Origin: Chrysomallon squamiferum
Taxonomy: Eukaryota > Animalia > Mollusca
Direction: 5' to 3'
DNA length: 64,000 nucleotides
NCBI GenBank assembly: GCA_012295275.1
Contig: CM022670.1
Coordinates: forward strand, 29,884,001-29,948,000
The first letter of the stretch is position 1. Every line of letters starts with the position of its first letter. The notes below the pieces were generated by a model. The model saw nothing but the letters and a program-made list of their open reading frames with translations. It was not told the DNA's origin and did no database searches. Shown here piece by piece: positions 22,497-64,000 of the stretch. A program made the position numbers and the translations under genes.

Positions 22497-22807
22497 TTAG
22501 AAATCCCAGTAGTCCAAAAAGCTAAATATATCTGGCTTCCTTCTCTTCCTCGGCAGCAGCACTCTGCTGATTTCATGGACAAGACCATTGGTAGCAGTAT
22601 TGTCACACTTGTTCACCTCAGCATGGCCAACCCTGATGCCATTGCGATAACGATCAAGAGAGAAAGTTTCTCCAGACATTGACTTAACTTTGGGGTTTCC
22701 AAACCAATTACTTTCAAAGATTCCAGCACAGCAAAGAAAACCTGAATTTAAAAAATAAATATGATAAAATAATAACAATAATTAATATTAAATTACAAAA
22801 CAAAAGA

Positions 22808-22841
<34 letters not shown>

Positions 22842-24377: not shown

Positions 24378-24408
<31 letters not shown>

Positions 24409-26043: not shown

Positions 26044-26098
<55 letters not shown>

Positions 26099-26245
26099 CT
26101 CTCTCTCTCTCTGTCAAAGTAATATACCAGTAATTAGACTGAAGATAATGATAAAAATAAATATGGTAAAATGGAATTAAAATAGATTTAAAAAAGTAAA
26201 AAGAAAGAAACAAACAAACAAACAAACAATAAAACAAACAAATAA

Positions 26246-26280
<35 letters not shown>

Positions 26281-30244: not shown

Positions 30245-30275
<31 letters not shown>

Positions 30276-30496
30276 ATTTTGAAGAAGAAGAAAGAAAACA
30301 AAATATACATTGTTCACATACAGTAAATCTGTTAAGTATATTATTTTTCACCTCTTGGACATCCATATTCTATCTCCTTTCTAGTGTAACCATGGCAACA
30401 TTCAAAGACTTCTATAACTTTTTTCTCCTTGTTTCCAATTCGTGATCTATGAAGAGTTAAGTTAAAAAAACACAGCAATAAAGTACGTTTATATAT

Positions 30497-30537
<41 letters not shown>

Positions 30538-31264
30538 AGTTCACCTGTAAGTCAATTATATTTAGTAGTAAAAATAAAAATAAAATAATAAAATAACACA
30601 CACACACACAAAATTACTGCCTTCGGTAGTTTTAAAATTTTGTTTACTTAAAACCAATCAAAACTATAGGTTAGACCATAGTTAAGTCTGTTTTTGTCAA
30701 GTTCTCTAATTAATGTTAATTAAAACAAATTTTAAATTTTGTGCACTCTTTTCTCTCAGACATAAAACAGACACACTTCTTCAAAATAATAATAGTAAAA
30801 TATGAGTTAAAATTTTGGTTACAAATCAGCAAGACTGCAACTACCAAAAGAAGCAGATGGTAAACTTACGTTGTAGTGCATTTGTACGCAGATTCGGTTT
30901 GATCACATATGTGACTCTGATAGCTGAAATGGCGCGAAATCGTGTTATCTTGAACATCCGTTAAGTTTGTTTCAGTGACGGTTCGACTTTTACACACATT
31001 CGGGCTGTTGATAGAAGAAATAGTAAAACTTTATTCTTGGAATTATCCAGGCAATTAATAACAACGAATAATCAAATAATTAGGAACCGTATGTAGAAGC
31101 ATCAGACTTTAACTGGCTCCAGATCTCACTGACCCACTGCAACATCATCAATAACAAACAATCTAGAAAGGACAAATGTATAAGTTATCCTTTGGCCTCT
31201 GTCTTCTCAGTCTGTATTTTTCATTACATTTCCTGCCAAAGAATTCTTGGATATGTGTTGTTTT

Positions 31265-31308
<44 letters not shown>

Positions 31309-34300: not shown

Positions 34301-34934
34301 CTTTCATTCTAATTTAAAACTGATGTTTTAATATCATTTTCATACTTCACACTACGAGTTACAAATCCTTATCTGAAGTCATATCAGGAAAGATTATCTT
34401 TTGTGTAATTTTCTTTGCTAAATCTCGAAATCTGAGCTTGTCGATTTGCAAATGCAAGAAAAAACGGAAGAACAATTTAAACAATTGGAAAAGAAATATA
34501 ATAAAAAATGAATAAGTAATTATTTGTTACCAGCTGGTGTAAAAATGCGTATGCAGTGATTTTAGTGTCATTCTGCATAATTCTCAACTTTTTAAATAAA
34601 TGCAACAACAGTGATGAACAACACACAAACAAAAACACACACACACACACACACACACTCTCTCTCTCTCTCACCAAAAAACTAAATTAAAAAATTGTCA
34701 CATAATATTTTTATGTTATTTTCACATACGCTGGTTCTCACAGCCGAACTACGTGGAGCTTAACGAGTTTCCTCATATGGTATTTTCAGCATGTGATCAT
34801 TGAAAACAAATTTAGTTCAATCTATTAAAAGTAACAACAACAGCAGCAATAATAATAACTAATGTTTATTCAGATTTTGTTTTCTTTATTTCTTCCCTTA
34901 TTTTTTGGTTTAATTATAATCTTTTATTATTCTT

Positions 34935-34978
<44 letters not shown>

Positions 34979-35408
34979 ATTTCATATCATTATTTTATTT
35001 AGTCAAAAAAAAGAAGAAAAAAAAAAGAAAAGAATGGATGAATGAATAAATATTTCTGTTTAAAGATCAGGCTTATATGAATGGTTAATTCCGATATTAC
35101 TTATTAGGCCTTACATTTTTGTTATATAATGATATTAGAGACGAAACCTTTATCCATAACCTGCTCTTGCTGATACTCATTAGCATCAAAGGATATTAAA
35201 TATGCACCTTCCACGACAGGAATGCACATACCAAATAGCCAAAGTTAAAACATTCTTTAGATAATGGCTGAACGGGAAATAAATAAATCATCTCAGCAAA
35301 CACAATAGATCCCGTGAACCATTACATCTCATGTAGTCTTTTAACTTGCTCTAACGTTAAAAATAATTAAGAAAATTATTAATAATATAATAGCAGATCT
35401 TTATCATC

Positions 35409-35456
<48 letters not shown>

Positions 35457-35656
35457 AAAATAAAATAAAATTACCGTTTTGTTAATCCATCCCAAAACGA
35501 TGGCTTGGCAAAATCGAAACCGAAGATTTCTGATTCCATGTCTCGCTGCATTTGATTTTTATTCTTATGCTTTTTTCTTTTATTCTTTCGACATTCCGAG
35601 TTTGAGATAAGAACTGCAACAATTAAAACCAGCACAAGGAGAAACTGTATCTTCAT
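22497..35656 (-). CDS. TGFBI: Secreted EMI + four fasciclin-1 domain protein, TGFBI/periostin-like (~772 aa)
   Basis: Exons (minus): 35656-35475, 31439-31326, 31004-30870, 30446-30352, 28989-28802, 28305-28093, 27394-27244, 26942-26802, 26580-26368, 25899-25766, 25441-25271, 24791-24693, 24067-23921, 23388-23298, 22741-22497, all in phase. Signal peptide, EMI motifs GPNVC and ECCHGY...GCP, four T(V/F)FAP H1 motifs, and ATNG(V/L)xH-type H2 motifs. The symbol denotes the family, not strict orthology. Confidence 0.92.
26046..26112. repeat. (CA)n(CT)n compound microsatellite
   Basis: Directly visible, within a fasciclin-gene intron. Confidence 0.9.
33815..34041 (+). mobile_element. Tc1/mariner-superfamily MITE with ~50-bp TIRs and a transposase C-terminal remnant
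   Basis: TA|CAGGGTGTCCCAGAAGTCACGCA.CATGAAGATTTTTATTTAGATAC ... GTATCTAAATAAAAATCTTCATG.TGCGTGACTTCTGGGACACCCTG|TA. The interior 33868-33966 encodes ISSETLNRVKNSFIKRIEVCINAEGKQFEHLL*. Confidence 0.9.
35180..35233. mobile_element. Degenerate SINE-like interspersed repeat core
   Basis: TTAGCATCAAAGGATATTAAATATGCACCTTCCACGACAGGAATGCACATACCA. Related copies occur at ~23069-23110, at 56911-56960 (reverse) and at ~45062-45108 (reverse). It resembles molluscan Nin/Deu-domain SINE cores, recalled from memory and unverified. Confidence 0.5.
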
Positions 35657-36173
35657 TTTGTCGTTTAAAATAAAATTTCTCTGTCAGCGTGTTGTTGCAA
35701 CCACTTGCAAATTGTTCAATATATGCACAACCAACTGCACAAAATATCGTCTGCAGTCTGCAGCTGAATCTGAAAGAAATGGTGACTGTTACTGTGGTGT
35801 TCTTGTTTTTATTTCGACAAATAATTCATGTGACCTGAGATAGAAACAGGATGTAATATTACTGTAACTGTTCGGTGAGTGGAATGTTCCAGAATGTTCT
35901 CTCAAAGAGAGTTGACACTGTCACGTTTTAATAATGCCTTGTTTTACGACGCTCATAGGAAACAACATAGGTTTTCAATGAATACTTTAATGGCGATTTA
36001 TCAGTCGAGATTTAAGAATAACTGCGCTGCCAATATAAATTATTCGATTTTTCCCTTCGATCGCAAGAACTGAACTATCAAAAGCGAATACAGAAAATTA
36101 ACAGAAATAATGTACGATTTAACGAAACGATAAAGCATGAGTTAAAAATACATATGCCTAAACACTAGAAATA

Positions 36174-41424: not shown

Positions 41425-41898
41425 ATGTCATATAACGTGGGATACACACTTGATCGCCCTCACAATAAAAGTCTGTACAGCACCATCCCACCGAGGTTGG
41501 ACAAGATGTCTGCCGTGTCAACTCTGAACAGAATCGCCATCGTTGCCTGTGAACGGATAATGTTACTCATGAACAACACGGAGATGACTAAACACAGAAG
41601 AATGGCAACCATGGATGATGTCTTATTGTTTCTCAGCGGCAATCACGATGACGTTGGCTTATGCGGCGACAGAGGCGATTTCTACCGCCGTAAATTGGCC
41701 GAAGAATTGTATGCAGCATTTTCAGTACATGGTGTAACCCATGAAAATATCATGGGAGTGGTTTCGGGAGCCATCGATTTAGAACGTGAAACCAGACTTA
41801 TACTTCAGTGCAGCGGATGTGTGAGAGATCAAGCCCCTCGTGTAAATATTGATAATACAGTGCTGGACATTTTAGCTCGCATTGCCAATTTGCATTAA
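41425..41898 (+). CDS. Uncharacterised 157-aa protein, single coding exon
   Basis: Acceptor TTTTGACAG at ~41408-41416 and ATG at 41425. The ORF is GC-richer than its flanks with non-repetitive globular composition (MSYNVGYTLDRPHNK...DILARIANLH*). A candidate upstream non-coding exon donor CG|GTATGC is at ~40906. No family was recognised. Confidence 0.75.
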   Translation: MSYNVGYTLDRPHNKSLYSTIPPRLDKMSAVSTLNRIAIVACERIMLLMNNTEMTKHRRMATMDDVLLFLSGNHDDVGLCGDRGDFYRRKLAEELYAAFSVHGVTHENIMGVVSGAIDLERETRLILQCSGCVRDQAPRVNIDNTVLDILARIANLH

Positions 41899-42818
41899 CA
41901 TTCTGAACTTAATTTTTGGGAATAGTTTATAATAATTGTGATTAAACAATTTCGGATGGATTAGTTTTGATATATTTGTATTAATATATTAATTTTGTTT
42001 TTCAATGTTTAAAGCAGAAATAAGAAGCAAAAATATAATGATGTATTTTTAGATTTGATAATGATTTTATAAATAATTTGTTCGGTTATAATTATTATTT
42101 TGTTATACATTTTTTTTTTTTAATTCTTATTTTACAGATAGTATAATTTATTATATTATACTAATGAAATAAGTGCAACTATAAATACTAAAGCAGCTAT
42201 ATTTAAATCATATAAATTTGTGATACATATTCTTTTGTTGTTATGTCAAAAACGGACTTTAATGGAAATATATCATAACTGCTACATCGGTGGTTTTTCT
42301 GTTTTGTTTTTCTGTTTATATGTATATATATTAAGATTAGTTCACATTTTCAAATGTCATTATTGCTATCCATCGAACATCTGTCTGCATCAATATATAG
42401 TTCTTTTTTGTTCTTTTTTTCTTAATGAAAGATGTCGGCTTTAGCTTATATAATTTATTAAAAATAAGCAGTAACAATAACAGGAATGACAACAGTGACA
42501 GGATGACCACAACATGACCATTCTCTATAAAGTGAAGCTTCACCAGTTTGTTAATTTAAATTGTTACCGGGGTAGTTAAACTTCACTAAACTGAATGACA
42601 CAATCAGTAAGTTTGGTGAAGTTAACAGAAGGTAGTAATAAGTGATATAAATCTCTATTCCGACAGAAGCGATATCCACTGAATGAATTCGGCCCCCAGA
42701 CTCCTCGCCCAATTTTTTTTTGCCCCGCCCCTCTCTGTGATTAAACGTTTTATCTCATTTCAAAAAGAGTCTAGTTACGGCCATATATGTACGTTGTTCC
42801 AAAACGAATTAGGAAATA

Positions 42819-43591
42819 CAGTGGTACCTCGAGTTACGAATCCTCCAAATAATGAGTTTCTCGTGTTACGAGCAGCTGCCCTGTCGATCTGTTGCGAGCC
42901 AAAATCCGATTTACCAGCGAGCTTCAGATACACCTCCACTAATTGGTGCGACGAACAACACAACATCCGTCCCAGCATTCCGCGTCTTACTCGTTTGCTT
43001 CACGTGGTTACCTCGCCGCGGAAGCATCTCTGTTGTGTTGTGCTTGTGCTTTGTGCAGTATTTTGACAAATTTTCATGGATCCTAAGAAAGTGAGTGCAA
43101 AGGACAATGCTGAGAAAAAGAAGCGGATGATGTCCATTGAAATAAAGCATGAAATCATAGAAAAACCATGAGCGAGTTGTGCGTTTAGTCAACATGGCTA
43201 GGCAGTATGAGCGTAGTACTTTTACAATATGTACCATACCGAAGCAGGAGTCGATAAAGGCTGTAACTCCAGCCAAAGGCGTTAAAATAATTTCTAAGCT
43301 GCGTACCTCTGTCCATGAAAAGATGGAGAAACCCTAACCTTGTAAACTTTACAAAACCAATTTATTTCTTTACATTCTCTTTGATTTTGTTTTTATACAA
43401 TATATGTCATTTATAAATACATTTTTATTATTTAAAATCACGTTAAAAAAATTGGGGTATTTTTGGGGGGCTGGAATGGATTAATGGTATTTCAATTAAT
43501 TTCATTTGGGAAAACTGATTTGATATACGAGCAAATTGAGTTACGAGCTCGGTCACGGACTGAATTAAACTCGTAAGTCAAGGTACCACTA
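42819..43591 (+). mobile_element. Non-autonomous Tigger/pogo-like DNA transposon (second copy)
   Basis: TA|CAGTGGTACCTCGAGTTACGA ... TCGTAAGTCAAGGTACCACTA|TA. Carries a frameshifted CENP-B/psq-type HTH N-terminus ([30 protein letters not shown]...AKGVKIISKLRTSVHEKMEK). Confidence 0.9.
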
Positions 43592-47266: not shown

Positions 47267-50200
47267 ATGAAGGCAGTCACCATAACATATTCACATAACA
47301 TCTGTGGAATGCAGTACTTTTTTCTTCAAGCAGTCTGTCTTTTCACAGTATCGTCTAGTTTTCTGTTCAGTAAGTTAGATTATTAATATATTGTATTGTG
47401 ACTATTAATGCACACAGAGTAAAGCATATTAAATTTCAGTTTCAAAAAGAAGGGACAAACCTAATTTTCTTAGCCTGAGATAATTAAACAATCAGTATCT
47501 TTGTGTATGTATAAAAAACTATCTCATAATTATTTTATTCACTAATAATGACATATTATTTATATTAACCAGATACGATTTCAGAGGATCCATACGTATT
47601 CTATGGGAGCCAGCTTACTTTAAATTGTTCTCTTGGTGACAAATATAAAGACTATAATGCATCACAAATTTACTTTACATATGGCAAGGACAAACATGTT
47701 CCTCCTGAGAATGTGACTGTAATGTCGGAGCAAACTGCAACGATGAATCTGACAGTGTATAATATGACTGATTTCCAAAATGTCATGTATAATTGCTTTG
47801 TAGCAAAAAGAACTAATCTTGTTCAATCTTGGGTAATTACAGTTGAATGTGAGTACTGCTGTGCTTATTTTATAGATAAATCTCAGTGTTAAGCTGAATT
47901 TGATTTATTATTTAATTTTTATTCTTAGCTTTCTATTAAACATATCATTTGGTCTTTTAATTATTTTAAAATCTTTTCTAATAGTATAATAGTAACTTTT
48001 TTCTTTCTTTTGAATCAGGATATATTCACAATGATTCTGGTAATATAAAATAAAAATATTATATATTTTTTTGTTAAATTAAAAGTTACACAAGTATTAA
48101 TTTTGAAATATTTAATTTTATAGTTATAAATATATATCTCCTAAATTATTTGATTTAGTGGAATTTGTGTTAAAAATTTTACTTTACAATTTAATTACAA
48201 ATATCTGCTCAATTATTGGACATAGCTCAATTTGAGTTCTGAAATAGTTATTTGACAGTCATTTATAAATGTTTGGATCACTGCTTCACTGGTGAAAATG
48301 AGTTACCGAGAAACTCTTTAACTTACACTTATTACATAAAGTGAATTTTAATTATTTAATTTTACAGCTAACTTCAAATTAAATGCAGTAATTATGCAAT
48401 ATACCATTAAGCAGAATAATACACTGATAATGTTAAGTAAAATTATAATATTAATTTATATATATAAATATATGTTTTGTACTTTATTTATTGTGGGTTG
48501 TTCGTTTATATTTTTCAGACCCTTCTCGACCTGTCTCGGATTTTCATTGTGTAGTCAACAACTGGGATACAATGCAATGTGATTGGAAACTAGGCAAATA
48601 TGAAAATCTGAATAACATAGATGTTACATTTAATTGGATTTCAACTGCAGCTAGTGGGTTAGTAAAATATGTATGTTAGGAGTTAAATCCTGAAAAGACA
48701 GTTTGAAGAAACATTTTAATATGGGGTCATTCCGTATCAAATCACCCCCCCCCCAAAAAAATGTATTTAAACCCGACTCTCAGATCCAAAATTTTAGGTG
48801 AATTGGACCAGTGGTTTGGTAGATATGGCCCCTGAATTCTGAGAATTTTGACCACCAACCTTTGAACCCTCATATCTCAGTAATTCTACTGGGCTAATCT
48901 TCATAAAATTGGTATTGTTGAAAAGGCAATATGACAAGGTTTCCAAATCTGCCATTATTGTTCATTTTGGAGAATGTTAGGGTACACTAACCGTTTGACC
49001 TTTGTTATGACCTTGAAATTGACCTTGTGGATCACGTGACCTTGAGATAACCTTTCTTGAAATTTAATCTTCCATAAAAAACTAAAACATATAAAGGTTT
49101 CAGGGGTGTAATATTTTTTGTTTAGCCACAATATAGATTTAAAAAATGCATGTCCAGGTAAATATCACCTTTTCTGCCATTAACATCTGATTAGCTAAAA
49201 CCTGAATGACCAATTCCTGATGCTAGGAATCACCAACTCTCTTAATCACCAAGTAATACATTGTAGGCCTACATGCTGTGATCATTTGATATCAAACTAC
49301 TTCCCTCATTGCCTTCTCACCAGTTTAGCAGTCACAGAATTATTCGCTCACCCACTTCCCCCATATTCTTGCAATTCTAGCATCATCCTTTTTACAAGTA
49401 GTAGTAGAAATCGTGGAAGTAGTCTTATAGATGTAGTAGTTGTAGTAGTGGCAGTAGGTAGTAGAAGATATAATAGTAATGTAGAGGGAGTGTTAGTACA
49501 ATTAGTAGTACTTGAAGAAGTGGTAGGATTAATTTTAGTGCTAGTAGTAGAAGAAGTAGTGTCAGCAAAATAAATAGCTATTTTAGCAGTAGTAGTGGTA
49601 GTAACAGTATTTGTGATAATAAAAGTAGCAGTAGTGGCGATGATGGTGACAGTAGTAGTTGTTCTAATAATAAAAGTAGTAACAGTAGTAATTGTAGAAG
49701 TACTGGTGATGATAGAAGTAATACTAGTGGTGGTAATAGTAGTAGTCTAGAGGGAATTATAATAGTGATATAATTGCCATGTGATCAATGGGGATTTCAA
49801 GGAGTTCCTGACATGCCTGAAACCCTTTGGGCCTGATTGTGTAGAACATGTCATGCCATTTGGTATCTTTTCATATCCTCCAGGCATTCTTTCAGACTTG
49901 TCAGATGGATTTTTTTGGTCTCAGAGAAGTGTATACATGTAGAAAATGTACATTGTAATGCATTGTATCAATCATCTGTGCAGGTATGCACTTTTTAAAT
50001 CTATATTGTGGCTAAACAAAAAACATTACACCTCTGAAACTTTTATATGTTTTAGTTAACATGTGGGAGATTAAATTTTAAGAAAGCTTATCTCCAGGTC
50101 ACGTGATCCACAAGGTCATAACAAAGGTCAAAAGGTCAATGTACCCCAACCAAAATACCAATTTTATGAAGATTGGCCCAGTAGTTCCTGAGATATGAGG

Positions 50201-53200
50201 GTTCAAAGGTTGGTGGTCACACCCATGCTGTGGGATCCCACTCAAAAAGTATACCAAGTTTTGTAAAAATCTGAGACAGTCACGTTTAACCCATTGGATG
50301 ATTTGACACAGAATGACCCTATGTATAACTTGTATATAATTACATTTTAGTCCATATTGATACAAATTAAGCAAAACTAAATGCAAAATAGGTTAAAGCA
50401 GCAATTTAAATACTTGAGTTTTTTGATTATCAATTTTTGGTGACATATATTTCAGTAATACTTTAATGTTTGAAGCTAAAATTTTGAATGAAAAGTTTTT
50501 TTCAGCTAATAGTATACTTGAGTATAAATGTATTATTAATGTTTTGTTGATTAACAAAATTATCAATAATCTTATATTTTGAGAAATATATTTTTAAAGA
50601 TAATAACATAATTAAAATTAGATTATCATTTTAAAAAGGTACAAAAATAAAAAATAATTTCATTAAAACAAAAAATGTAGATGGGGCCTCTGCAAGAACT
50701 TAACCAAAACTTCATGTCTGTTGACAAGATTAGAGTTTCCTGGGTTGAATGTGTTCCAGATAAACATAACAGTCAACAATACAAAGAAAATGAGTACAGC
50801 AGTCACGTCATATCAAGTCAATGCCCAGGATATTGGTATGTATAAAAGTATTTGCATGCTAATTTTTACTACTGATGACATTTCACAATTTTTTATTTCA
50901 TATCTAAATGTTCTTTAGATAACAACTTTGCAAAACAGCTATACTGGAAACAGAAAACCTCTGTTTTGAATATATAAAGTAATGAAATGTACCTTGCTTA
51001 TGGCATGCCATAATAAACAGTTTTAAGAAGGTATCAGTTTGGGGAAATTATTTGGTATTAATCCATCTTGCAATATGTGGATAGTTCAGAACATATCATT
51101 TAATTGGGTGAATATAGAGATTGTTTATTATTGTTGTTTTAAATGTTTTAACATATTAACAATGATGCTACAATGCTTTGTTTTATTAATAATGTAGCTA
51201 CAGATGTTTAGATATGTTAAAAAATTCTATCTTGAAACAGTAAAACCTGCCCCAGTGAAAGACTTCATTTCTGACTTTCAAAACAGTACATGTGTACATT
51301 TGAAGTGGATGCACAAACAGCTTACCAAGGGTCTCAGATTTCAAATAAATTACACAGATGGAAAATCTTATAATGTAAGTGTATCTTGGATAATATTTTT
51401 CTAATATTTATTGACATCATTTCATAAATAGACACAATAAAACAATAACAAAAACTTGGGAAACTGATTATGAAGCTGAATGCTGACAAGACCAAAGTGA
51501 TGATTTTCACTTCTAAACATAACTCAGACGATGTTGACACCATGTCAGTTACTGTGGCTGATGTCTCCATAACTTCAGTACCATGTGTGAGAAATCTTGG
51601 TGTTACATGTGATTCTACAATGTGTGTGGAGCATCAAGTGAATGCAATATGCATGTCAGGCTATGCTCAGCTACAGAATATCAGCTGAATCAGGCAATAT
51701 CTGATCAGTGATACCACAAAGACACTGGTGAATGGACTTGTGATGTCACAACTGTACTATTGCAATGGACTACTATACTGTTTGCCTAACAGCTTGCTCA
51801 AAAAGCTGCAATGGGTCCACAATACAACAGAATGCATTGTGACCAGAACATCACATCACATTCACATGTCGCCAGTACTTTAGGAGCTCCGCTGGTTGCC
51901 TGTCCACTGTAGAATTAAGTACAAGCTCCAACTCCATACAAGCAACACCTTGAACAGTTGTTCCTCAAAGTACACCAAGAACATGCTGGAAGTGTACACG
52001 TCAAGTAGGACTCCACAATTACAGAGTTCATTAAGATTAGTAACACCAAGAATAAGAGCAACTACATACAGCCAGAGATGTTTCAGTTAAGCTGCTCTGA
52101 CTTTGTAGAATTCACTCCCAAGTAATATCAAGGAGGTTGAAACAAAACACTATTAAAGACCCATTTCTTTCAAATCCACTTTGTTGGTACATAATTACGT
52201 TTTATTTTTCCAATTTTAAAATGTTCAAGCTAGACAGTTAATTTATCTCATACAATTTTGAAATGTGACATTTATTTTTACTACCATTTTAACATGTTCA
52301 CCATTATGTTTACATTTATTTTAATATCTTTATGTTCAAGTCTTTTTATATTTTAGTTCATTAGTTTACACTGTAAAACAACCTTGCACTTACTTAGTAT
52401 GGAAAAGATGCTATATAAATAAGGTCACCTGTGCATACAAAACAAAACAAGTAGACTTAGTAAATCATTTATAACACACTGTACCCCCACTTGTTAGAAG
52501 ATTCATATTTTTTTATCTATGAGATAATATCACAAACAAAAATGTTAGCTTTTGGTATCATCATTGAATTGTTATTTTATTCCTACACTTTGATATAAGT
52601 AAAAATTAGAGAAAAAAAAAAAAAAAAAAAAATAAATAATGTGCTCAGAAAAGATATTTGGAACTATTCAAAAGGATCTGTCAGCAGTTATGAGGGACAG
52701 TTTAATTTTATAATTAAGCATTCTGATTATTTTCATATAATAAATAATATAATAGCTTTTACAGTAAATCTCTGTTATTTATTGTGTTACTGTTATATTT
52801 ACATTGGTAACATGTAAGTTTTAATTTTAGTTATAAATAGATTCATTAATGTGTTCATATGTTTATCTCTGTATGACACCTAAGAACTAAAGTAATTTTA
52901 TGCTGAGCTGTTGATAAACATTCATTCATTCCTTCAGTTAGGGCATTCCATGTTAAATTACCCAGTGGGCATAACCCCACCACTTAAATTTTGCTCTGAC
53001 TTTGTATTTTGGAAAAGTGAAGTGTTAAATATTTCTTGCATTGATCAATAGTTTTAAGAGACCCCTAAGATGTAAAGGTCAAGATCATAAACATTTAATA
53101 CATGATAATGTAAAAAGAAATAAGGACAGACTACAAATCAAAAGTTTGGAGTGTTATTTTTTATAAATACTGATACAATTCAAGAAATATATTGACATTT

Positions 53201-56200
53201 CTAGTCCATGGTAAACAAATTAGCCAAGTTACAGGAAAATCAAGGGGTTGGGATTAATATATTTTGTTTTGTATATGACATGAAATGAATGACATTTAGT
53301 TTGTAGTGTATATATATGACTGGATGTGGTCTATCTTTCAGGCTGTTACAACACAACAGGAGTACACTATGTGTGGTCTGCTACCATTCAGAAATTACAC
53401 TTTCTATGTGAGAGCTCATCCAGTAAACACTGGTGGCTTTTGGAGTGATGCTGTTCCAACATCCATAAAGACAGCAGAAGATGGTAAAAATAAAACTGCA
53501 AATTACATCTGCCATTAATTTTTCTGAGATTTTGTAAAAATGCAGTTTCTCAGTTTTGAAATAAACAAAATATGAGTATAGTTGTGTTCTTATTTGGCAG
53601 ATTTTAAATTTTCATTTTGTTATAAATTAAATAATAATAATTTCCTAGCATATGTTAACTTAATATTTGATTTTCAACTCTGTATTAATAAAATAAATTA
53701 TTTTGCTCATGGAATTATGGGTATACAAACATTCTACTGGATGAGTTATAGCCCTTTCTTTTCTTTTTTTAAATTTATATTTTATCTCCATATATTTTGG
53801 TGATGTCTACTCCGATATGTCATTTAATTGTAACTTTTATCTTTGAATGACACCCTGTAGCCATTTATATTTTTTTATTTTGGAGTGACTTTAAACAAAC
53901 ATACAAACAAATCAATATTTCAGATTTTCCTCATATTTGTATTCTGTTTTCTAACAACATATGTTAGAAATGTGTTTACTTTTTTTCCCTATGGTTTACA
54001 TAATCAAATGTTTGTGAAATATTATTACTATGTTGAACAGTATTTGCTACAATTAATTTTTCATTCCAGCCATCTTAATGTTTTGTTTCCCTAAATATAT
54101 TTGGAAATAATTTTTTTATTTTCCTGAGAAACTATTGTAGGTCTGATTTTTAGACATGAACATAACCTGTAAAAATAGAAGTTATAATTAGATTTTTGTT
54201 TTGGGTAATGATTTTCAACTTCTTTTAGTCTGTTTCAACTGTTATCTTGATCTTTTGACTATAAAGATAATATGAATATACTCACGGAATCAGTAAATGT
54301 ATAGCTAGATATCAAATAGCCAGTCAACAAATATTTAAAAAAAAAATAAAAAAAATGGTTCTGTCCATACTGTACCCAAATGTCAGTTTTTTTACCAGTT
54401 ACTTTTTGTGAATTTGTTTACCTGCATAATGAAAACAATATAAAAATTATGCTTAAAATGTTTATAAAACTTTGAAACGATTATTTATATTTAGAAGTTG
54501 TTTTTCTTTTTTTGGTTTTTATTATTAATGAAAGAAAGAAAGAAAAGAAAAAAAAAAATCAAATTCACCCCAAATTAAAAATTATGTACATTTTGAGATA
54601 TTTTCCATGCAGATATTTGTTTAAAAAGTTACATGTAAGCACATATGAACAAAGAAATTAAAATACAAAAAAGAAAGCCAATATATATATATAAAAGAAC
54701 ATTTGACATTTCTGCTCTTTAAAAAGAGTTTATTTTTAACATACACAGTATGGCATTTATTTTTATTTTTTCTATTCATCATTTACCAATTTCTATTAAA
54801 TCTGTGACAGTGTTTTCATTATGTGGATTTGAATAATCTAAAAAATTCCTCCTGCTTATAATTGTTAATAACATAGTAAAATATTTGAAAGCTGTCATTT
54901 TTCCCTTTCACAAAAACTTTAACAGCTGTTTGTTAAAAAAAACTTCTTAAAACAATAAAAAAAAAAAAAAAAAAAATAACCACAGTGTTTGTTATGTTTA
55001 TATCTCTAAAAAAATGTATTGCTTTTCAGTACCTTCAGTGGGTCCTAATGTAACCAGTGGAAGTTATTTTGATAATTGTGACAGTGGAAACAGAAGCACT
55101 GTGCTGTATTTTAAGGTTGGATTATTACTGTTGATTTAGATAATATAATATTTGTAAGAAAAATCTTTATGCTGTCTGAAAATCTATAACTGAAAACCTT
55201 CACTCAAAACATTTTGTCAAACAGCACCTGAGATGGTGACTATTGACACTTTAGATGATTTAGGGTGCATAAACTTTATTTCATGCCCTATAGTATTAAA
55301 GATAATACGTAAATATATCTGAAAGCTACATGTTTAGGATGTATATATATAACACAAAGGCGTATCTTATTATTTTCCTAATTAGCGACTTCCGACACCA
55401 AGGATGTTGGATAAAGGATTCTCAATCTGTAATATATATTCAGATGTTTTATTTTATTTTTTTTTCCAGCCACCAAAAGAAGAATACAGAAATGGAATTC
55501 TCACTGGGTATAACTTAACAGTTGAGGAGAGAGAAACAGGTCACTCATTTCCAGTGTTGGTAGATGCTGAAAAGACATCAGCAGTAATAAAGGGCAAATG
55601 TAAATCAAGTTATAATGTTCTATTATTTGCAATGACATCAGTTGGCTTGTCAACAAAACCAAGTTCTGTCACAATTAACAGATATCATTCAGGTATGTAG
55701 TTTCTTACTTTTAGTAAGTTCACTAATAATTTATCCTTAGGTGAGCTTATTTAAAATACATAAATTTATACAGGACAATACGCAATACTAATATATACAA
55801 ATGAAGGTAACATGTCTAAACAAATTTATTGGTACTGTTACATTAACTTGACACTCCCATGTTTCTAAATAATAAATTTACATAATTAAGAAGTGGGTTA
55901 AATAAACTTGGTATTAAGAAACAATTCATAAGTTGTATCGAATGACTCAAATGAATATTGTTAAGGTATAATGGGTTTGTTTTTATTTTCAAACAATAAC
56001 CAAAATCTTCATTTAATTATTTTCTATGCTTAAGTGACTTGAGAAAAACAGTCCTCCTGAAAATCCACCCCGATCATTCCTTTAATGACCTTTTAAGTTT
56101 AGTTAAAAATTAGACTAAAATAAAAAGAAACTTGACTATTCCACATATACATATCCTCCTCCTGTTAAATATTAAAAAATTAATTTAAAAAAAAAGATTA

Positions 56201-59200
56201 CTTTTACTCTGAAAAGCATTATTATTAACTGATGACATGCCTAAATTAATTATTTAATTGTGACATAATTTCAGTGAAAGTGCCTGGATATTTCCGAATA
56301 GAAATTAGAAACCGGCCTACATCAAGTGTCATTGCTAAATGGGATGCTTTAGAAGATGTGGATGACACTTACACAGTGTACTGGTGCCAGGGATCTGCAT
56401 TCACTCTGAACTACTGCAAGGTTGAATTTTTCTGTCCATTGATAATTTGATTTGTTTTGTTAATTATTAACAGTAGTATTTAGATTTAAGGTGTTTATTA
56501 TTATAATTTTTTTTATATATTTCCTTTGAAACATTTTCACAGAGATTTGTATATATGTATTCCTTTTTTTTTGTTTTCTGAAAGCACACAAACACCACTA
56601 TTCTTCTAGTATTGGACATTTATGTGACATATCTATTACTCTGATAGAATACATCAATAAAAATATTTTTTGTTTCAGAATGCTGTTGAATGGTTAACAG
56701 TAAGGAAAAAGAACTCCGTCTTACTGCCTGTTAATGTTGATGATGTTGACAATTACATGTTCGCAATTTCTCGTGATACATCAACAGGTTCAAGTGGTTT
56801 GACAAGGAGTGAGTGTGTCTACAAACACGACACAAGTAAGTTCAAAAATGTTTTTCTTTCTTCTATGTTTTATTTATAGTTTGTTACAACAACAAGTTTA
56901 TCATACTATTGTATGTGCATATTGTCCATGGGATGGTGCATATAAAGATCACTTGTTTCTCAAATCCAAAATATATCAGAAGTTGCATGTAAAATATTCC
57001 TTAATCAATAAATACATTCCTTTAGCAAGTGATTTCCTCTCATTTCATTAAACCTCTAAAATAATGTTAATCTATGAATCACTCATTATCATTTTATCTG
57101 CATGAATTTAATATTTTTATTATGAAAGAAGAAAAAAGATTTCTCTTACTTCAGTTGTCATCATTAAACTATTTTATTAATCAAAACTAATTATTTTATT
57201 TGTTTGTTCATTTATCCTTTGTTTATTAATTTATTTTAAAATAACAGATCTAAAATCAGTTAATGTTTTCTACAGGGCCTGATGCTCCTGGAAACATAGA
57301 GATAGCAGAGAGCAGTTCTGACTTAACATTGAATGTTTTATGGAACAACAGAAGGTGTGACATGGATAAAAAGTCACTGTTATCTAAATACATAATACAC
57401 TACAGTCATGTTGGCAACTCAGGTAAACTGCATTTACAGTTTAATGTTTGTTTTTTTTATTTTTTTTATTTGTAGTCTGTGGGTGGTAAAACAAATTGTT
57501 TAATGACACTGGAGAAATAAAAATTAGTTGGGTTAAATGTTGTTAAGAATATTGTAAATGTTTAAGTATTTTAAAAATATAAAACCTTACAAAAACAATT
57601 CATAATAGTAAAAGTTTGAAAATGTTCTGACATAAAAAAGTACTACGTGTTTTCTATTGTTATGATGTTAATATGTTGGGTTGCTTAATATAAGAGTGTC
57701 AGATATCAGCGTCATCCTGAATAACTTGTCATGTCTGTTTAGTTTGTAAGAAGTTATATTTTATAATTAGACTAAGTCTAAAGTATCATCACATCATCTA
57801 TTTTTTCAGGGTCCAATAAATCAGTAAAAGTCAACAGCTCTGCAAACAGTTACCAACTGACTGGTCTGGAACAAGGAAACTACAGTGTTGTGATGCAAGC
57901 TGAGTCAGAAAGTGGAATTCTCAGTCCTTTCAGCAGACCTGTGTTTGGAGTTGTTGTAGATAACAGTACGTATTCTACCTTGAGTCTGAAGATTTCTTTT
58001 TTTTTTTAAATAATAAAATACTTCTTACTCTTAGAATAATGCAGTGTTGCTACAGTGAAATTTCTCAAAACCAAAACCCCACCAAATTTGAATTCCCCAA
58101 AACCTTAATAATTTCTCCAGTCCAGTTACTTATCATGTACTAAAATGTGATATCTCATTAGAAGAAAGACCCTTCCAAACTGATCTTGTTCCCCACAAGA
58201 AAAACTATTCAGAACTTTAGTTCAATAATTTTTAAGTCAAATGATATCAAACACAAAATAATGTTTTTGAAGAGAAAAATCATGCTTATAATCTCAGTTA
58301 ATATTCAGGGATAGTATCATTCATCTGTGTCTTAAAGTATACTTTTGGTGAAGTGAAAAAATTAGTCTAAATATATTCTCCATATTAGTAAGTTTTGTTT
58401 GTTTTGCTGTCCAATCTTAATAAAGAAGTACATTAACAAAGAGTATATTAAAAAGTATCTGAATGCTGCTAGTTTTCTACCATTGTGATATCATCATTTA
58501 CAGTGTGAACGAGTTTCTTTAAATTTTCATCTACAGCTGTCATGTTTTCAGTGACTTCACAAACCCAGTTTTGATAAAATGTCAGCATTTAAAGTTTTCT
58601 GAATTTATTACTTTGTCATGCTTTGTTATTAACTAAGATAAGTCACTCAAAACAATAAAATGATAACTTGGAAGTATTAAGAATTTTGTTCAGACCATTT
58701 ATATATATATATATAATTTTAATATTTTTGTTATAATACTTTCAGGCCTGACTAATGGAGAGATATTTGGCATTGTATTTGGTTCTCTGTTTGCACTGAT
58801 TTTTGTTGGAGCTCTCATATTTTTTCTGTGCCGGTAATCAGAATTATCTTAATTTTTACACAACTGTTTCTGATGTATTTTAGTAACATAACATTATACT
58901 GTTGTTAATTTGAAATCTGTTGATATGTGGTATATCTAGACACTCCTGTGAACGATTTGGTAGACATGATTGAAACTGGTGTATTTCTTAAGTTTGGTAC
59001 TGACAGCAAAGATGGAAATGGATGCATACCAATGGCTGATAGTTATTTGCACAGTCATCATGCATCTCTGAAAGGTTACATAGTTTTTCATGTTAGTTGC
59101 ACCAATTATCATGAAACCAAGTGAACAGTTGTTTATATTCTGATTAAATTTATTGAAATGTCCAACACTGTTAATAGTATTTAGAATTGCTTATAAAACT

Positions 59201-62007
59201 TGATAATGTTAATAATTAGTTAATATTAATGAGACACGATTTTCCATAATATAATTTTTAAAGAATTTGTTTGATTCTTAATTTTTGTTTGATAAAGTAG
59301 TATCTGTTTGTTCACACATTGATCTCTTTTATTCCTCATCTATTTCATTATTTTTATTATTTCATTACATTTTATTTTTCAGAAATTGTAAAATATTTAA
59401 AAAAGATAAAATTGAACTGCCATCTCATACAAAGGTGAGTCACAAAAAAATAATAAAATATAAATTAATGTAATTGATTTTGATGGCTTTATTTTATTTA
59501 ACAGGCTAAACTAGTTAGTCAGTGTGAAACTACTGTTGTGTAAAAGTAGACTGAGCATTACAGCATTTTTGTGGTTATTAAAATGTTAAAGATAGTTTGT
59601 TTTGTATACTTTAATGATCTGTAGGACTCTTTGTAATGCTGAAAAAATCATTTTTGTTTAATATAAAGCATTTTATCATTAAGTTTTTGAAAATTTTATC
59701 ATTAATAAAGAAATATAAACTAAAACTTACATGCTTATAATTCTAATATTAAGTGTATCATTTCATTTATTTTTATTTATTATTTAAATTGTATTTCAGA
59801 CACTGTTTGATGAACACTATGAAAAGGTTAGTGTAATTTTAAAAGATGACTACGTCTGTGAGCAGAGGTGTATAATTTATATTTTATTTATTTTTTTATT
59901 AATCGTATCTCAGATTTGAAACAATTAAAATTAGTTTTTCTACCAATTTCCTGTCTGAAATTACTTAAAGAGCTTTGGTATGGTATGAACAGAATTAAAT
60001 TTTTTGTCTAGCAACAAAATGAAGTAACAAAATGTCATAACCATTCTCATGATATGTTTTTGTTGAATCATCATTTGAGATCTTGCAGTTTTTGTGTTGA
60101 GCACATGCTATAAACTTTATATTTACTTGAAAAAATTATACATACATTTCTTTTTTGTTTCTACATGTTACTAAATAAATTGACTGTTTAAGTTAACTAT
60201 TTTTGATTAGAAGTTATATAATAACTTTCTGAAACAATATAATTTTAAAATCTTGTGTTATTTTAGATTGATGAAACTAAAGAAACTCTGACGTTTCCTG
60301 AAGAAATAGTCTCAAAAGAGAAGGTAAGATTTTTATTTTTATTTTACATTTACTGATATGTTTTAGTGAAGTTAAACAAAGTGTTGCAGCTATGTGTATT
60401 CCATTGTTATTAATGTGTGTGTGTGTGTGTGGTAACAGATTATATCAGTAAATGACCACAAGAAAAAAAAAAGAAAACATTGTAAATTCTAGAAAAGATG
60501 AATTGATTTATGCATAGATTTAGGTTTATCTGGCACATTTATGTGCAGTTTAACTATTACATTTATTTAGTTTTCTTTACATCTTTATATACATTTTTCC
60601 TACTATATTCATTTACAGTCTTCCTAATACATTTATTTACATTTTCTAAGGATGGTCCTACTACATTTATTTACAGTTTTCCTCCTACATTTATTTACAG
60701 TTTTTCTTTCACCTTTATTTACAGTTTTCCTACTATATTTATTTACAATTTCCCTACTACGTTTATTTACAGTTTTCTTACTACATTTATTCAGTTTTCC
60801 TTGCACCTTTATTTACAGTTTTCCTAGTCCATAAGCCTTAATTTAAAATTTACCTGCTAAATTTAAAACTGCTTATTTAAAAATATTGTTTCTTTTACAG
60901 ATCTCTGTTGACACAGGGAAAACAATGAACAGACATAGAAGTGCAATCAGTACAGACAGTGGACGTGGGAGCTCAGAAGAGAGCAAAAATAATGGTACAC
61001 CAAGTCCTATGTCCTCCACCTCCAACCACTTTGAAACTGTAAAAGAAGAAGATGGCTTTGAGAAAATAACAGACAATGAACCAGCTGATAGCAGCAGACC
61101 TCCAGATTATTCTAAATTTGCCAAAGCTTATGAACCATTTCAGTTAGAACAGAGAAATGGAACTGTTGAGGTATGTTTAGGTAACATTCAGCCAGGAATC
61201 TTCCGCTCTGCTGAATCGGAGAAAAATGCCAAAATAAATTTAATTCCTCCAACAGATCAACCAGTTTCAGGACAGACCATATCATCCTATGTAACAGTGG
61301 GAACAAGTGGCATAGATTGCAATCAAAACATGGATGGTTTTGTACCAGTCATAAATAATGATGGTTATGTAGAAAATGCACAACCTGAAACAGACAGAGA
61401 AATCAGTACTACCTCTTCAATAAAATCAAGACACAGAGTCCAGGATTATGATGTATCATCATCTCATCTCAGAGTACCATCAGTGGGTTATATTGAAGAA
61501 AATGCTCAGATATCAGCCAGGTTTGGTGAATCTCTAAATTGCCAATCCAGTACTGTGAACTGTGACATAAGTCCTGATTATGTTGGGATCTGTAATGTCA
61601 TGACTGCTCAAGGCTATGTAGATCTGCCATTTACCGTTCATGAAAGCCAGAATCTTCAGTCAGGAAAGACAGAATCATTCAGTGAATCTCTTACTTCTGA
61701 ATTTCATAATGGTCCTGAAGTTTCAAATGATAATGTCATTTCTGCTCAAGGCTATGTGGATATGCCACCTAATGGAGTCTGTGCTCCATCTGGTGTTGAA
61801 AACCAGGTGCTGTTTGGTGGCAGATTTACTAAGAATCCGGAAGACACTGTTTTACTCAGTAGTCAGAGTGGAAAATCATCTTGTATTGAAGATGCTCAGT
61901 TATCAACTGATGATGAAGTTGAACCACCATGTGCTCAGTCATGTGAATCTTCTTCCTTTCATAATTCTGTCTTTTCCAATATTAGCAATTCTGATCCGAA
62001 ATGCTAA
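47267..62007 (+). CDS. dome: Class I cytokine receptor, gp130/Domeless-like: signal peptide, Ig-like domain, cytokine-binding module, FN3 repeats, TM, long Tyr-motif tail (~1064 aa)
   Basis: Exons: 47267-47369, 47573-47848, 48519-48657, 50681-50835, 51241-51374, 53342-53483, 55030-55115, 55470-55692, 56275-56420, 56679-56835, 57276-57422, 57810-57965, 58746-58833 (TM IFGIVFGSLFALIFVGALIFFLC), 59383-59434, 59800-59826, 60267-60323, 60901-62007, all in phase. Motifs: CVVNNWDTMQCDW, VKPAP, GGFWSDA (degenerate WSxWS), NGILTGY, YTVYWC, Box1-like KIELP. The symbol denotes the family. Confidence 0.88.
48724..50319. mobile_element. Sola2-like non-autonomous transposon with long inverted arms, in a receptor intron
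   Basis: TSD TATG on both sides; termini GGGTCATTCCGTATCAAATCAC ... GATTTGACACAGAATGACCC. The arms ~48724-49151 and ~49986-50319 are inverted copies. A (GTA)-rich low-complexity interior spans ~49398-49747. Confidence 0.85.
51455..52422 (+). mobile_element. 5'-truncated, degenerate L2/CR1-group LINE (C-terminal part of ORF2 plus 3' UTR)
   Basis: Peptide fragments MKLNADKTKVMIF, VRNLGV..DS, IRQYL...TKTLVNGLVMSQLYYCN, SPVL.ELRWLPVHCRIKYKL with in-frame stops. The AT-rich 3' UTR ends near GCTATATAAATAA. Confidence 0.88.
60575..60825. repeat. 24-bp minisatellite in the last receptor intron
   Basis: About 10 copies of CCTACTACATTTATTTACAGTTTT and variants. Confidence 0.9.
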
Positions 62008-64000
62008 TTCCATTGATTCTCCATATGTTCAGAATACTGATCTACCTTATGTACAGAAAGCTGAATCTATTGATCCACCGTATGTTCAGATTACTTAAAT
62101 CACTGTCTGAATTGACTATTTTTCTGACTTCTGTCCTATCTAGTATTCAGAATAATGATTCTTTAAAATAATAAAACTGTTTAAATTGCTTTTGTGTATG
62201 AGATCACAGTTATCACTGGTTGTTTCACTTATTTTTATCTGTTATATATCTTATATATATATAAACAGATAAAAATAAGTATATATATAAACTATTTTCT
62301 TTAAAACTACTTTTACAGACATTTAGTATTATGCTAAATATTTGAGTACTGTAGATTTTTTATATGATACAGTATATAAATAAGTTTTTATATGAATTCA
62401 GGAGGTACAGTTTGAAAATACAGTTTGAGATAAAATTTTGGAATAATTCCCATCAACTGTATATCTGACCTTATTTGTCCTATAATTTCTTTCATTTTTA
62501 CCCACTTATCAGCAACTCTAACTGCAGAATGGCTAGATCTGTCAGGGATGAGATTGCAGACCACCTCCTTGTTGAAGACTGGTAACTGCAGGTCAGTTAA
62601 TTTTAGACAGAGGTGGACATCTACAAGTATTTATAAAAAAAATAAAGTGAATGTTTCACCTTTATAATCAGTGATGAAAATGGGGAGAGTGTCTGCAAGG
62701 GTGGGGGCAGTACTTACCTTCTTTTTAGTTTACAGTTTGTCCTGTTTCTGTGCTAGATGAGTCGCAGATTATAATTTAGCCTTTGTCATGTTCCTAACAG
62801 TTAACATTAAATTACTTATTTTCTGTAGTTACATTTACATATTTTACTCACCTTTCATAAATAACACATATATTAAGATAAAAAAATCAAAAACAAAATC
62901 TTTCTTTAATGAATTAATAACTTTTTATACATTGTTAGAAATTAGAAATTGTTATGACATGCCCAAATTAGGGTAGGTAAAATATAAGTCAGTACTTTTT
63001 TCTGTCAACTAACCTTAATGAAAAACTGATTTATAGACCAGGTTTTTTTTTTAAATGGAATTACTTACAGCATTTAACCCCCACCTTCCTTCTCATCCTT
63101 AGCATCATGGACTTAGTGTATCGCAAGTTCCTAAAACATTTCCATCACTTCATAATACTATCTTTCATTTTTATATTTCATTTGTTGATAAACATATTTA
63201 CTTGTTTGTGTTGAACAAGGATTTATATCATTTTATCTTTTTAACTGAAAATTACAAAATTTTGAATCATGTATTGTAAACCAGTTGTTCAGATTATTGT
63301 TTGTATAAATTATGGATGAAATTTGGAGGATATTTTTTTGTCTTCCATTAGTAAATGTTCTGTGCATATTTTTGAGATGATTTTAAAATGTTTATAACTA
63401 AAATGTTGCTGTTGCATAAATGTATATATAGCTTGAATTTATAAATTATAATTAAAATTGTTTTTGTGATGTAAAGTTGTTATTATATTTGTTTGTATAT
63501 AATGTATGTAGGTAATATTCATGTTAAATTTAAACTGAATAATGCTAAGAAAATATTTAAATACCTACAACTTGCATATTGTTAAATTTAACAGATCCAA
63601 GTTTTAAAATACACAATTCAAAAATATAATTTAATTATAAAAAAAAATTAAATATGGAATTAAATTTTTAAATTTTGTTTTTACATATTTTGAGCTAATT
63701 TGTCTTCCTAAGGCTGAAACTGAAGAATAGGTTCTGCTTTTTTTTTAAATTTGAAATGACAGTTCATAGAAGTATAATTTTATACTTACGCTGTTGTATG
63801 GATCTGCAACTTGGAAATTTTGTTGTTGCACATTAGGTTATCTTTATAGAAAAGAGTGTCTGTAGCACTGGATGTATGATAGAGATTTCTATATTATATA
63901 TATTGTGGATTCTGCATTTCAGAATCATTTTCTTGTACATGAACTTTATTTTTAATTTTTTTTTTTTTAAATCTCCTTTTCTTATTTCAAATTATGAATG

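What the first reader, a model, noticed from the sequence alone, without database searches (positions are those of the whole stretch)
61987..62098. Cytokine receptor tail is frameshifted: three PYVQ tyrosine motifs stranded in the +1 frame
Seen: the ORF ends ...SNSDPKC* (TAA 62005-62007), but the +1 frame continues NANSIDSPYVQNTDLPYVQKAESIDPPYVQIT*. The DNA is a tandem duplication: unit 2 (62033-62089) is 57 nt and unit 1 (61987-62032) is 46 nt, lacking 11 nt exactly where a fourth PYVQ would be. The PYVQ copies differ at synonymous positions (CCA TAT GTT CAG / CCT TAT GTA CAG / CCG TAT GTT CAG), which suggests protein-level selection. Inference: the ancestral receptor ended in 3-4 pY docking repeats. 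This sequence is either a truncating allele (11-nt deletion or 1-nt insertion at GAAATG), an assembly error, or, least likely, a +1 recoding site producing two signalling tails.
Basis: partly seen in the sequence, partly recalled or inferred. Interest (0 to 1): 0.72.

Follow-up and report, generated by a model that had tools for sequence, protein, structure and literature searches.

The report
Mollusc cytokine receptor loses tyrosine tail
An expressed gp130-like signalling receptor gene, likely from a mollusc, stops just before three repeated tyrosine motifs that lie out of frame in every sample checked, likely because a small recent deletion cut off a docking array resembling one that a second species still carries.

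Summary
A 17-exon, 1064-aa gp130/LIFR/Domeless-like receptor ends SNSDPKC* (TAA 62005-62007). Three PYVQ motifs follow in the +1 frame. All 6 organism-A runs laid (three studies; four spliced transcript contigs, two genomic) match the window here with no gap.

A second organism (B) holds a single-copy-depth array matching 62014-62052 at 33-35 of 39 letters. It has a 24-nt period and ends ...DPPYV* in the PYV frame, while nothing upstream in the exon aligns at 80%. The receptor's own frame enters the array as N-S-D-P, matching B's unit start N-T-D-P.

Best reading (0.72): a young, probably fixed net +1 deletion (11 nt fits best) moved an old tyrosine array into the 3' UTR. Six Y-[V/I] motifs stay in frame.

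Caveats: B's array is not shown to be in B's receptor. PYVQ is not a YxxQ STAT3 site. The shift site is unlike antizyme sites.

Unexplained: the +1 frame is open for 127 codons upstream (68 of 5000 shuffles), which leaves a minor PYVQ isoform possible (about 0.1).

The parts
47267..47369 (+). First coding exon (ATG at 47267), signal-peptide-like
   Evidence: ATG, hydrophobic run and phase-1 GT donor; inferred, not listed among contig pieces
47573..47848 (+). Ig-like exon
   Evidence: Spliced contig piece in X1, X7, X8; Pfam Lep_receptor_Ig E 2.5e-4, below the curated cut-off
48519..53483 (+). Four exons of the cytokine-binding module (48519-48657, 50681-50835, 51241-51374, 53342-53483): C-x9-C-x-W, second Cys pair, degenerate F-W-S-D motif
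   Evidence: Exon lengths sum to contig X1 coordinates; weak IL6Ra-bind and fn3 hits
55030..57965 (+). Six exons of the membrane-proximal FN3 region
   Evidence: about 27% identity over about 700 aa to Patella receptors
58746..58833 (+). Transmembrane exon
   Evidence: Hydrophobic run; exon length fits the contig arithmetic
59383..60323 (+). Three short intracellular exons (59383-59434 with Box1-like KIELP, 59800-59826, 60267-60323)
   Evidence: Together with the TM exon they give exactly the 224 nt required by contigs X1 and X8
60901..62007 (+). Coding part of the last exon, frame 0, ending SNSDPKC*
   Evidence: Contigs X1, X7, X8 and X2 show 0 other letters and 0 gaps
61288..61755 (+). Six in-frame Y-[V/I] motifs; Tyr codons at 61288, 61366, 61489, 61579, 61615, 61753. 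The last two (QGYVD) are a duplication at offset 138
   Evidence: 33 of 37 letters, score 27
61879..61938 (+). Two in-frame look-alikes with Cys in place of Tyr: SCIEDAQ (like GYIEENAQ) and EPPCAQ (like DPPYVQ)
   Evidence: 0 of 300 and 15 of 300 shuffles reach the score; the first is borderline in the exon-wide ungapped scan
61987..61998 (+). Start of the broken unit, read in frame 0 as N-S-D-P; inferred site of the net +1 deletion
   Evidence: matches the unit start N-T-D-P read from organism B's letters
62005..62007 (+). Present stop codon TAA
62015..62098 (+). Stranded array in the +1 frame: PYVQ at 62021-62032, 62045-62056 and 62078-62089, stop at 62096-62098
   Evidence: 62014-62052 is matched by organism B contigs
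62122..62172 (+). Decayed further copy of the unit behind the +1 stop
   Evidence: Local alignment reached by 2 of 300 shuffles; within the null in the ungapped scan
61622..62098 (+). Open +1 frame of 158 codons overlapping the end of the ORF; hydrophobic, no Pfam hit

Best explanation
This expressed gp130/LIFR/Domeless-like receptor gene stops just inside a tandem tyrosine-motif array, likely because a young net +1 deletion (about 11 nt, removing one P-Y-V core) shifted the frame and left three intact PYVQ copies in the 3' UTR. Shown: the sequence, its splicing, the stop, identity across six runs, and a matching array in a second organism ending in a stop in the PYV frame. Inferred: the array was the coding C-terminus in the common ancestor; the allele is at or near fixation; the mRNA escapes nonsense-mediated decay because the stop lies in the last exon (established knowledge, recalled). 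Predicted function: JAK would phosphorylate the tail's Y-V motifs, which resemble STAT5's own DGpYVKP site and would dock a STAT5-like or other SH2 protein. The shortened receptor would keep six of nine or ten such sites and signal with changed strength or duration. The tail gains motifs by duplication (QGYVD twice) and loses them by Tyr-to-Cys change and frameshift.
For: Real and expressed: transcript contigs X1 (60899-62336), X7 (to 62221), X8 (to 62314) and X2 have 0 other letters and 0 gaps. Genomic contigs X5 and X9 have no gap in the exon. X9 is from another study and differs elsewhere (58791, 61210, an 18-nt intron gap), so it is another haplotype. The 16 exons from 47573 plus 226 nt upstream give exactly X1's 3647 nt, so the main transcript has no hidden intron. 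Old array: organism B contigs of 99 and about 2350 nt, depth 13-17, match 62014-62052 at 35 and 33 of 39 letters; the chance expectation for 35 of 39 at any offset is 0.0003. The extra letters shown read by eye as Y-V-K-N-T-D-P-L-Y-V and Y-V-H-N-G-D-P-P-Y-V-stop in the PYV frame. Frame link: A's frame 0 enters the unit as N-S-D-P. Constraint: nothing of B aligns over 61300-62002; simulation puts B's exon at about 70% identity or less if it is there, against 85-90% in the array. Family motif: Patella tails carry NGYV and a C-terminal SPYVK/SAYVK. STAT5 peptide DGpYVKP, with Val at pY+1 in a hydrophobic pocket (PMC5067585, passages).
Against: No contig shows B's array joined to B's receptor exon, so orthology and frame in B are inferred. 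B's X10 and X11 are one sample. The 33-of-39 match alone has a chance expectation of 0.12 at any offset. Both Patella receptors lack an array. The selection signal within A is weak (3 of 8 differences synonymous). Tolerance is not a given: in human gp130, gnomAD and UK Biobank tail truncations were loss-of-function in the assay except the two at the very end, and p.E899 was dominant-negative (PMC12288962 section 15). Contigs drop rare variants, and three of the six runs (X1, X2, X5) are flagged as possible sources of this DNA, so fixation is not proven. The long open +1 frame is not explained. No binding partner was tested.
Confidence: 0.72

Rival explanations
1. Two tails from one gene: a minor alternative 3' splice site or internal intron in the last exon, or +1 ribosomal slippage at the TGC-TAA stop, would put some ribosomes in the +1 frame and give a PYVQ-bearing receptor, which would keep the array under selection.
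For: The +1 frame has 17 stops in the first 240 codons and none in the last 127; 68 of 5000 synonymous shuffles and 1 of 5000 codon-order shuffles do as well. 0 of 8 at-risk sites make a +1 stop there, against 17 of 28 upstream (boundary chosen after the fact). Phase-compatible AG sites at 61751 and 61892 score 4.6 and 7.1, in the range of the gene's true acceptors, and a phase-0 donor-like site lies at 61171. All three Tyr are intact, and the array is closer to B than the coding exon is.
Against: No joint and flat depth in transcript-like run X2 over 61300-62187. The joint table showed none here, but 234 rows were hidden. The splice matrix came from 16 sites and is crude. Third positions turn T-rich in that half of the exon (66 of 128 against 85 of 240), which itself removes +1 stops. 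The +1 peptide upstream is hydrophobic and unlike the tail. UGC is not among the seven antizyme P-site codons, and about 97% of antizyme sites use UGA (PMC1874602, passages). The downstream fold is unremarkable (z -1.58); no Rfam match.
Confidence: 0.1
2. The array never coded in this lineage: it is a 3' UTR minisatellite, and B's array is a non-orthologous or non-coding relative.
For: No flank of B aligns at 80%. Patella has no array. Synonymous bias vanishes outside the chosen cores. A third frame is also open through the repeats.
Against: Frame 0 runs into the unit in register (N-S-D-P). An in-frame EPPCAQ look-alike lies 94 nt upstream of the first copy. B's array ends with a stop directly after P-Y-V. 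The listed contigs show one locus each in A (X5) and B. A neutral UTR repeat should not be better conserved than the coding exon beside it.
Confidence: 0.1
3. A common but still segregating truncating allele; an in-frame allele persists in the species.
For: Only contigs were available; they collapse heterozygous sites and drop rare variants. Three of the six runs may be the source of the window.
Against: 6 of 6 runs laid, from six samples and three studies, agree. Eight of the nine holders have word share 1.00 and one has 0.98. X9 carries other differences but the same junction.
Confidence: 0.07
4. Assembly or polishing error in the window.
For: Two earlier unchecked notes on this genome report frameshifts or missing bases, one of them called a possible sequencing error.
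Against: Independent Illumina RNA contigs (X7, X8) and a genomic contig from another study (X9) reproduce the junction letter for letter.
Confidence: 0.01

Closest known systems
Patella vulgata 'leukemia inhibitory factor receptor' (XP_050401234.2, P0019), Patella caerulea KAK6188231.1 (P0018), Lottia gigantea XP_009047873.1 (P0005)
   Same: Same ectodomain order; 27-31% identity, E 1e-47 to 1e-63 against the window's spliced protein; long low-complexity tail with NGYV and a C-terminal xYVK motif
   Different: No tandem array and no stranded frame in the two Patella proteins; the tails do not align; the Lottia model lacks the tail
Vertebrate gp130 (IL6ST), LIFR and Drosophila Domeless
   Same: Ig, cytokine-binding module, FN3 region, TM and a tail with several Tyr; P0019 hits the gp130 chains 1bqu, 8upa and 1pvh at E 3e-9 to 9e-9; architecture as described for molluscan 'IL6R' (PMC13203501, passages)
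   Different: No YxxQ in either frame, whereas YXXQ is the consensus STAT site cited for Dome/Lat (PMC2914635, passages); degenerate WSxWS and Box1; the motifs are Y-V type
Human tail-truncating receptor alleles: IL6ST in hyper-IgE syndrome (PMC12288962), EPOR in familial polycythaemia (PMC5865417)
   Same: A nonsense or frameshift change removes the distal tail; the effect can be loss, dominant-negative or gain of signalling (abstracts; sections 13 and 15 of the first)
   Different: Those are rare disease alleles. Here the short form is the only one seen in the species, adds only two new residues and keeps six Y-[V/I] motifs
Antizyme-type +1 programmed frameshifting (PMC1874602)
   Same: A stop codon ends frame 0 with a useful-looking +1 frame beyond it
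   Different: The site is UGC-UAA, not a listed P-site codon with UGA; no stimulator found; the offset is not shown conserved in another species

Membership tests
Tall class I cytokine receptor (gp130/LIFR/Domeless-like) | N-terminal Ig-like domain | tested here: met
   Pfam Lep_receptor_Ig E 2.5e-4, 21.4 bits, below the 28.8 cut-off; Ig-like atlas hits
Tall class I cytokine receptor (gp130/LIFR/Domeless-like) | Cytokine-binding module with four Cys and C-x9-C-x-W (pattern recalled) | tested here: met
   Read in the spliced protein; weak IL6Ra-bind hit, E 0.026; the Lottia relative hits at E 8e-5
Tall class I cytokine receptor (gp130/LIFR/Domeless-like) | WSxWS motif (recalled) | tested here: inconclusive
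   Only G-F-W-S-D at the expected place; the limpet proteins have G-Y-W-S
Tall class I cytokine receptor (gp130/LIFR/Domeless-like) | Membrane-proximal FN3 domains and one TM helix | tested here: met
   fn3 hits in single exons, below the cut-off; colinear with Patella over about 700 aa; TM exon 58746-58833
Tall class I cytokine receptor (gp130/LIFR/Domeless-like) | Proline-rich Box1 for JAK (recalled) | tested here: inconclusive
   K-I-E-L-P-S at the expected place, one Pro only
Tall class I cytokine receptor (gp130/LIFR/Domeless-like) | YxxQ STAT site as in gp130 and Dome | tested here: not met
   None in frame 0 or in the +1 tail; so filed as gp130-like, not as a gp130 orthologue
Tall class I cytokine receptor (gp130/LIFR/Domeless-like) | JAK/STAT activation by a ligand | not testable with these tools
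   Needs cell assays
Antizyme-type +1 frameshift site | [quoted passage not shown] | tested here: not met
   The codon is UGC; list from Table 1 of PMC1874602
Antizyme-type +1 frameshift site | UGA stop (about 97% of cases) | tested here: not met
   The stop is UAA
Antizyme-type +1 frameshift site | 3' stimulatory structure | tested here: inconclusive
   z -1.58, 14 of 200 shuffles fold as well; no Rfam match; pseudoknots not modelled
Antizyme-type +1 frameshift site | Frame offset conserved across species | not testable with these tools
   B's junction with its upstream exon was not shown

The most novel reading that the evidence does not exclude
The last exon is dual-coding: a minor splice choice or +1 slippage makes a second receptor form ending in three PYVQ docking sites, so one cytokine-receptor gene switches between two signalling tails. 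This would explain the 127-codon open +1 frame and why the stranded array is better conserved between species than the coding exon beside it.
Probability: 0.1. Interest if true: 0.78.

Novelty: new variant of a known kind. Interest (0 to 1): 0.42.

Why it matters
It appears to be a natural, species-wide truncation of a core JAK/STAT-type receptor, of a kind known in humans as disease alleles, caught before the lost tail has decayed. It points to Y-V rather than YxxQ as the docking motif of molluscan gp130-like receptors, and suggests that the number of motifs changes by duplication, Tyr-to-Cys change and frameshift. The A and B tails make a ready pair for testing how docking-site number tunes signalling. 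If the dual-tail reading holds, it would be a rare case of dual coding in an animal receptor gene.

Tried and rejected
No whole genome is held, so paralogues and STAT/JAK genes of organism A were not examined.

Homologue searches:
- The last exon found nothing among longer proteins.
- The Ig exon gave 7 hits in the representative library, of which one Lottia protein and one 120-aa fragment look related.
- Lottia as query gave two Patella proteins.
- The search with alignment A1 gave the same two. A1 was a poor alignment of exon pieces with only 121 profile positions, so searches are weak negatives.
- No closer named relative was found.

Other searches:
- Two pattern scans of metagenome contigs found nothing.
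- The atlas gave no usable hit for the distal tail.
- Pfam gave nothing for the last exon, the +1 tail or the +1 ORF.
- Earlier findings gave nothing by sequence, words, near or relatives.

Ideas rejected:
- A pyrimidine-rich AG at 61984-61985 looked like an acceptor but scored -0.4 and needs a phase-1 donor.
- A 22-nt repeat at 61638-61683 looked like an older compensated frameshift but scores 12, inside the null.
- Organism B's matches at 62221-62400 are AT-rich noise.

Literature: nine paper searches ran. The four aimed at molluscan receptors or PYVQ (23, 38, 57, 66) listed no paper that by title or abstract describes this array. The library lacks most subscription journals, and no supplements were read. 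The bioRxiv STAT5B preprint 10.1101/2024.09.09.612134 and PMC13204663 (passages) gave no motif sequence. No fold or complex job was run; neither could test a phosphotyrosine site.
Full report
Setting. The window is AT-rich (GC 25-33%) animal DNA with many introns. No whole genome is held. The nearest named relatives of the gene are limpet proteins at 27-31% identity, so the source is likely a mollusc. I cite the sequencing runs by handle only.

The observation. Frame 0 of the last exon ends SNSDPKC at TAA 62005-62007, and the +1 frame holds three PYVQ motifs and stops at 62096-62098. The 57-nt duplication is significant (31 of 39 letters; score 19 against a null maximum of 13.5 at the 95th percentile). 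A 24-nt period underlies it. Unit 1 aligns to unit 2 best with one 11-nt gap over the first P-Y-V core (score 41.0); a differently bounded alignment with a 1-nt insertion scores 36.5, so the exact event is favoured, not proven. The cores differ only synonymously (0.016 by simple count) but were chosen for identical amino acids, and over the full aligned stretch 3 of 8 differences are synonymous, against about 2 expected.

The gene. Sixteen exons from 47573 to the last exon, each with an AG acceptor and all but the last with a GT donor, reproduce the coordinates of transcript contig X1 and its length of 3647 nt exactly, given 226 nt upstream. With an inferred signal exon (47267-47369) the ORF is 1064 aa. 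It has an Ig-like domain, a cytokine-binding module, an FN3 region, a TM helix and a 414-residue tail. Pfam hits on single exons are weak and below cut-off. The spliced protein matches two Patella receptors over about 700 aa at E about 1e-63, and one of them hits gp130 chains in the PDB at E 3e-9, behind two contactin-2 chains. It is gp130/LIFR/Domeless-like; WSxWS and Box1 are degenerate and there is no YxxQ.

Is the frameshift real? Nine runs of organism A hold the stretch and I laid six of them. Spliced contigs X1, X7 and X8 cover the junction with 0 other letters and 0 gaps. X9, from a different study, has one 9153-nt contig with two other letters (58791, 61210) and an 18-nt intron gap, but no gap in the exon. 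X2 (spliced, by its length: 2606 nt upstream against 2610 predicted) and X5 (genomic) are identical over the region, with no joints. Some rows of these tables were hidden, but the per-contig counts cover the junction. Assembly error is refuted. Fixation is likely but unproven, since contigs drop rare variants and X1, X2 and X5 may be the window's source.

Was the array once the coding tail? Runs X10 and X11 (one sample of organism B) share none of the indexed words. At 80% likeness two contigs of depth 13-17 match 62014-62052 at 35 and 33 of 39 letters. Chance expectation at any offset is 0.0003 for the first and 0.12 for the second. The further letters shown continue the repeat with a 24-nt period. 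Read by eye in the PYV frame they give Y-V-K-N-T-D-P-L-Y-V and, at the end, Y-V-H-N-G-D-P-P-Y-V-stop. That is about six units if the two contigs abut (inferred). In A, frame 0 enters the broken unit as N-S-D-P, matching B's N-T-D-P, which ties the PYV frame to the receptor's frame. Nothing of B aligns over 61300-62002. A no-indel simulation says this needs about 70% identity or less (no window found in 8-23% of trials at 70%, 0.05-1.5% at 75%), so the array is better conserved than the coding exon beside it, if B's locus is the orthologue. That condition was not shown: no contig joins B's array to receptor sequence. If the array has been neutral since the shift, intact cores bound its age only loosely, at under about 0.11 changes per site.

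What remains in frame. Nine tyrosines remain. Six are Y-[V/I] motifs (SSYVT, DGYVE, VGYIE, PDYVG, QGYVDL, QGYVDM), the last two from a duplication at offset 138 (33 of 37 letters). Two distal look-alikes have Cys in place of Tyr: SCIEDAQ (0 of 300 shuffles in a pairwise test, borderline exon-wide) and EPPCAQ (14 of 18 letters, 15 of 300). Patella tails have NGYV and one C-terminal SPYVK or SAYVK but no array. STAT5's own site is DGpYVKP with Val at +1 in a hydrophobic pocket (PMC5067585, passages), and invertebrate STATs group with STAT5/6 (PMC13203501, passages). A STAT5-like partner is therefore my inference; it was not tested.

Mechanism. Most likely (0.72) a net +1 deletion near 61997 removed one core and exposed a stop two codons later. 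The transcript survives because the stop is in the last exon (recalled rule), and the receptor signals through the six remaining motifs. Evidence against easy tolerance: most tail truncations of human gp130 tested were loss-of-function and one late stop was dominant-negative (PMC12288962, abstract and sections 13 and 15). EPOR tail frameshifts raise signalling (PMC5865417, abstract). The direction of the effect here is open.

The loose end. The +1 frame has 17 stops in the first 240 codons of the exon and none in the last 127. This is matched by 68 of 5000 synonymous shuffles; 0 of 8 at-risk sites against 17 of 28 upstream, with the boundary chosen after the fact. A shift to T-ending codons may explain it. 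Two phase-compatible AG sites score like true acceptors in a crude matrix, but no contig shows their use (partly hidden). The stop context UGC-UAA fits no antizyme site (PMC1874602, passages), the downstream fold is ordinary and Rfam finds nothing. I give a second, PYVQ-bearing isoform 0.1.

Verdict. The feature is real: a known kind of receptor with an unusual and probably recent loss of a tandem tyrosine tail. Searches listed nothing describing it. Interest 0.42; 0.78 if the dual tail is shown.

Noticed in passing
window 58791 and 61210: Run X9 differs from the window at two coding sites, both changing the residue (Phe to Ser in the TM helix, Ala to Pro in the tail), and by an 18-nt intron gap at 60507.
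   Followed up: partly
window 48900-50300: A very high-copy repeat lies in an intron of the receptor; summed depth about 60,000 in X9 against about 54 for unique DNA.
   Followed up: no
window 41425-41898 (+): An intron-free ORF of 157 aa with no Pfam hit at E 0.01.
   Followed up: partly
window about 7600-14140 (-), 16050-19930 (+), 22500-35700 (-): Exon peptides that look like a RanGAP1-like gene, a leucine-rich-repeat gene and a fasciclin/periostin-like gene; named by eye from recall, not searched.
   Followed up: no
window 14441-15014: A near-perfect 285-nt tandem duplication, 98% match; could be recent or an assembly artefact.
   Followed up: no
window 2300-2750 and 42680-43330; 51450-52120: Two similar broken transposon-like pieces, and a broken reverse-transcriptase-like piece in a receptor intron; named by eye from recall.
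   Followed up: no
window 60535-60826: A 24-nt minisatellite of about seven copies in the last intron; its consensus does not resemble the PYV unit by eye.
   Followed up: no
window 59800-59867: The 27-nt exon has an open frame to a second GT at 59868; contig arithmetic shows the first donor (59827) is the one used.
   Followed up: partly
window 61638-61683: A 22-nt repeat inside the coding exon whose copies lie in different frames; its score is within the shuffle null.
   Followed up: yes
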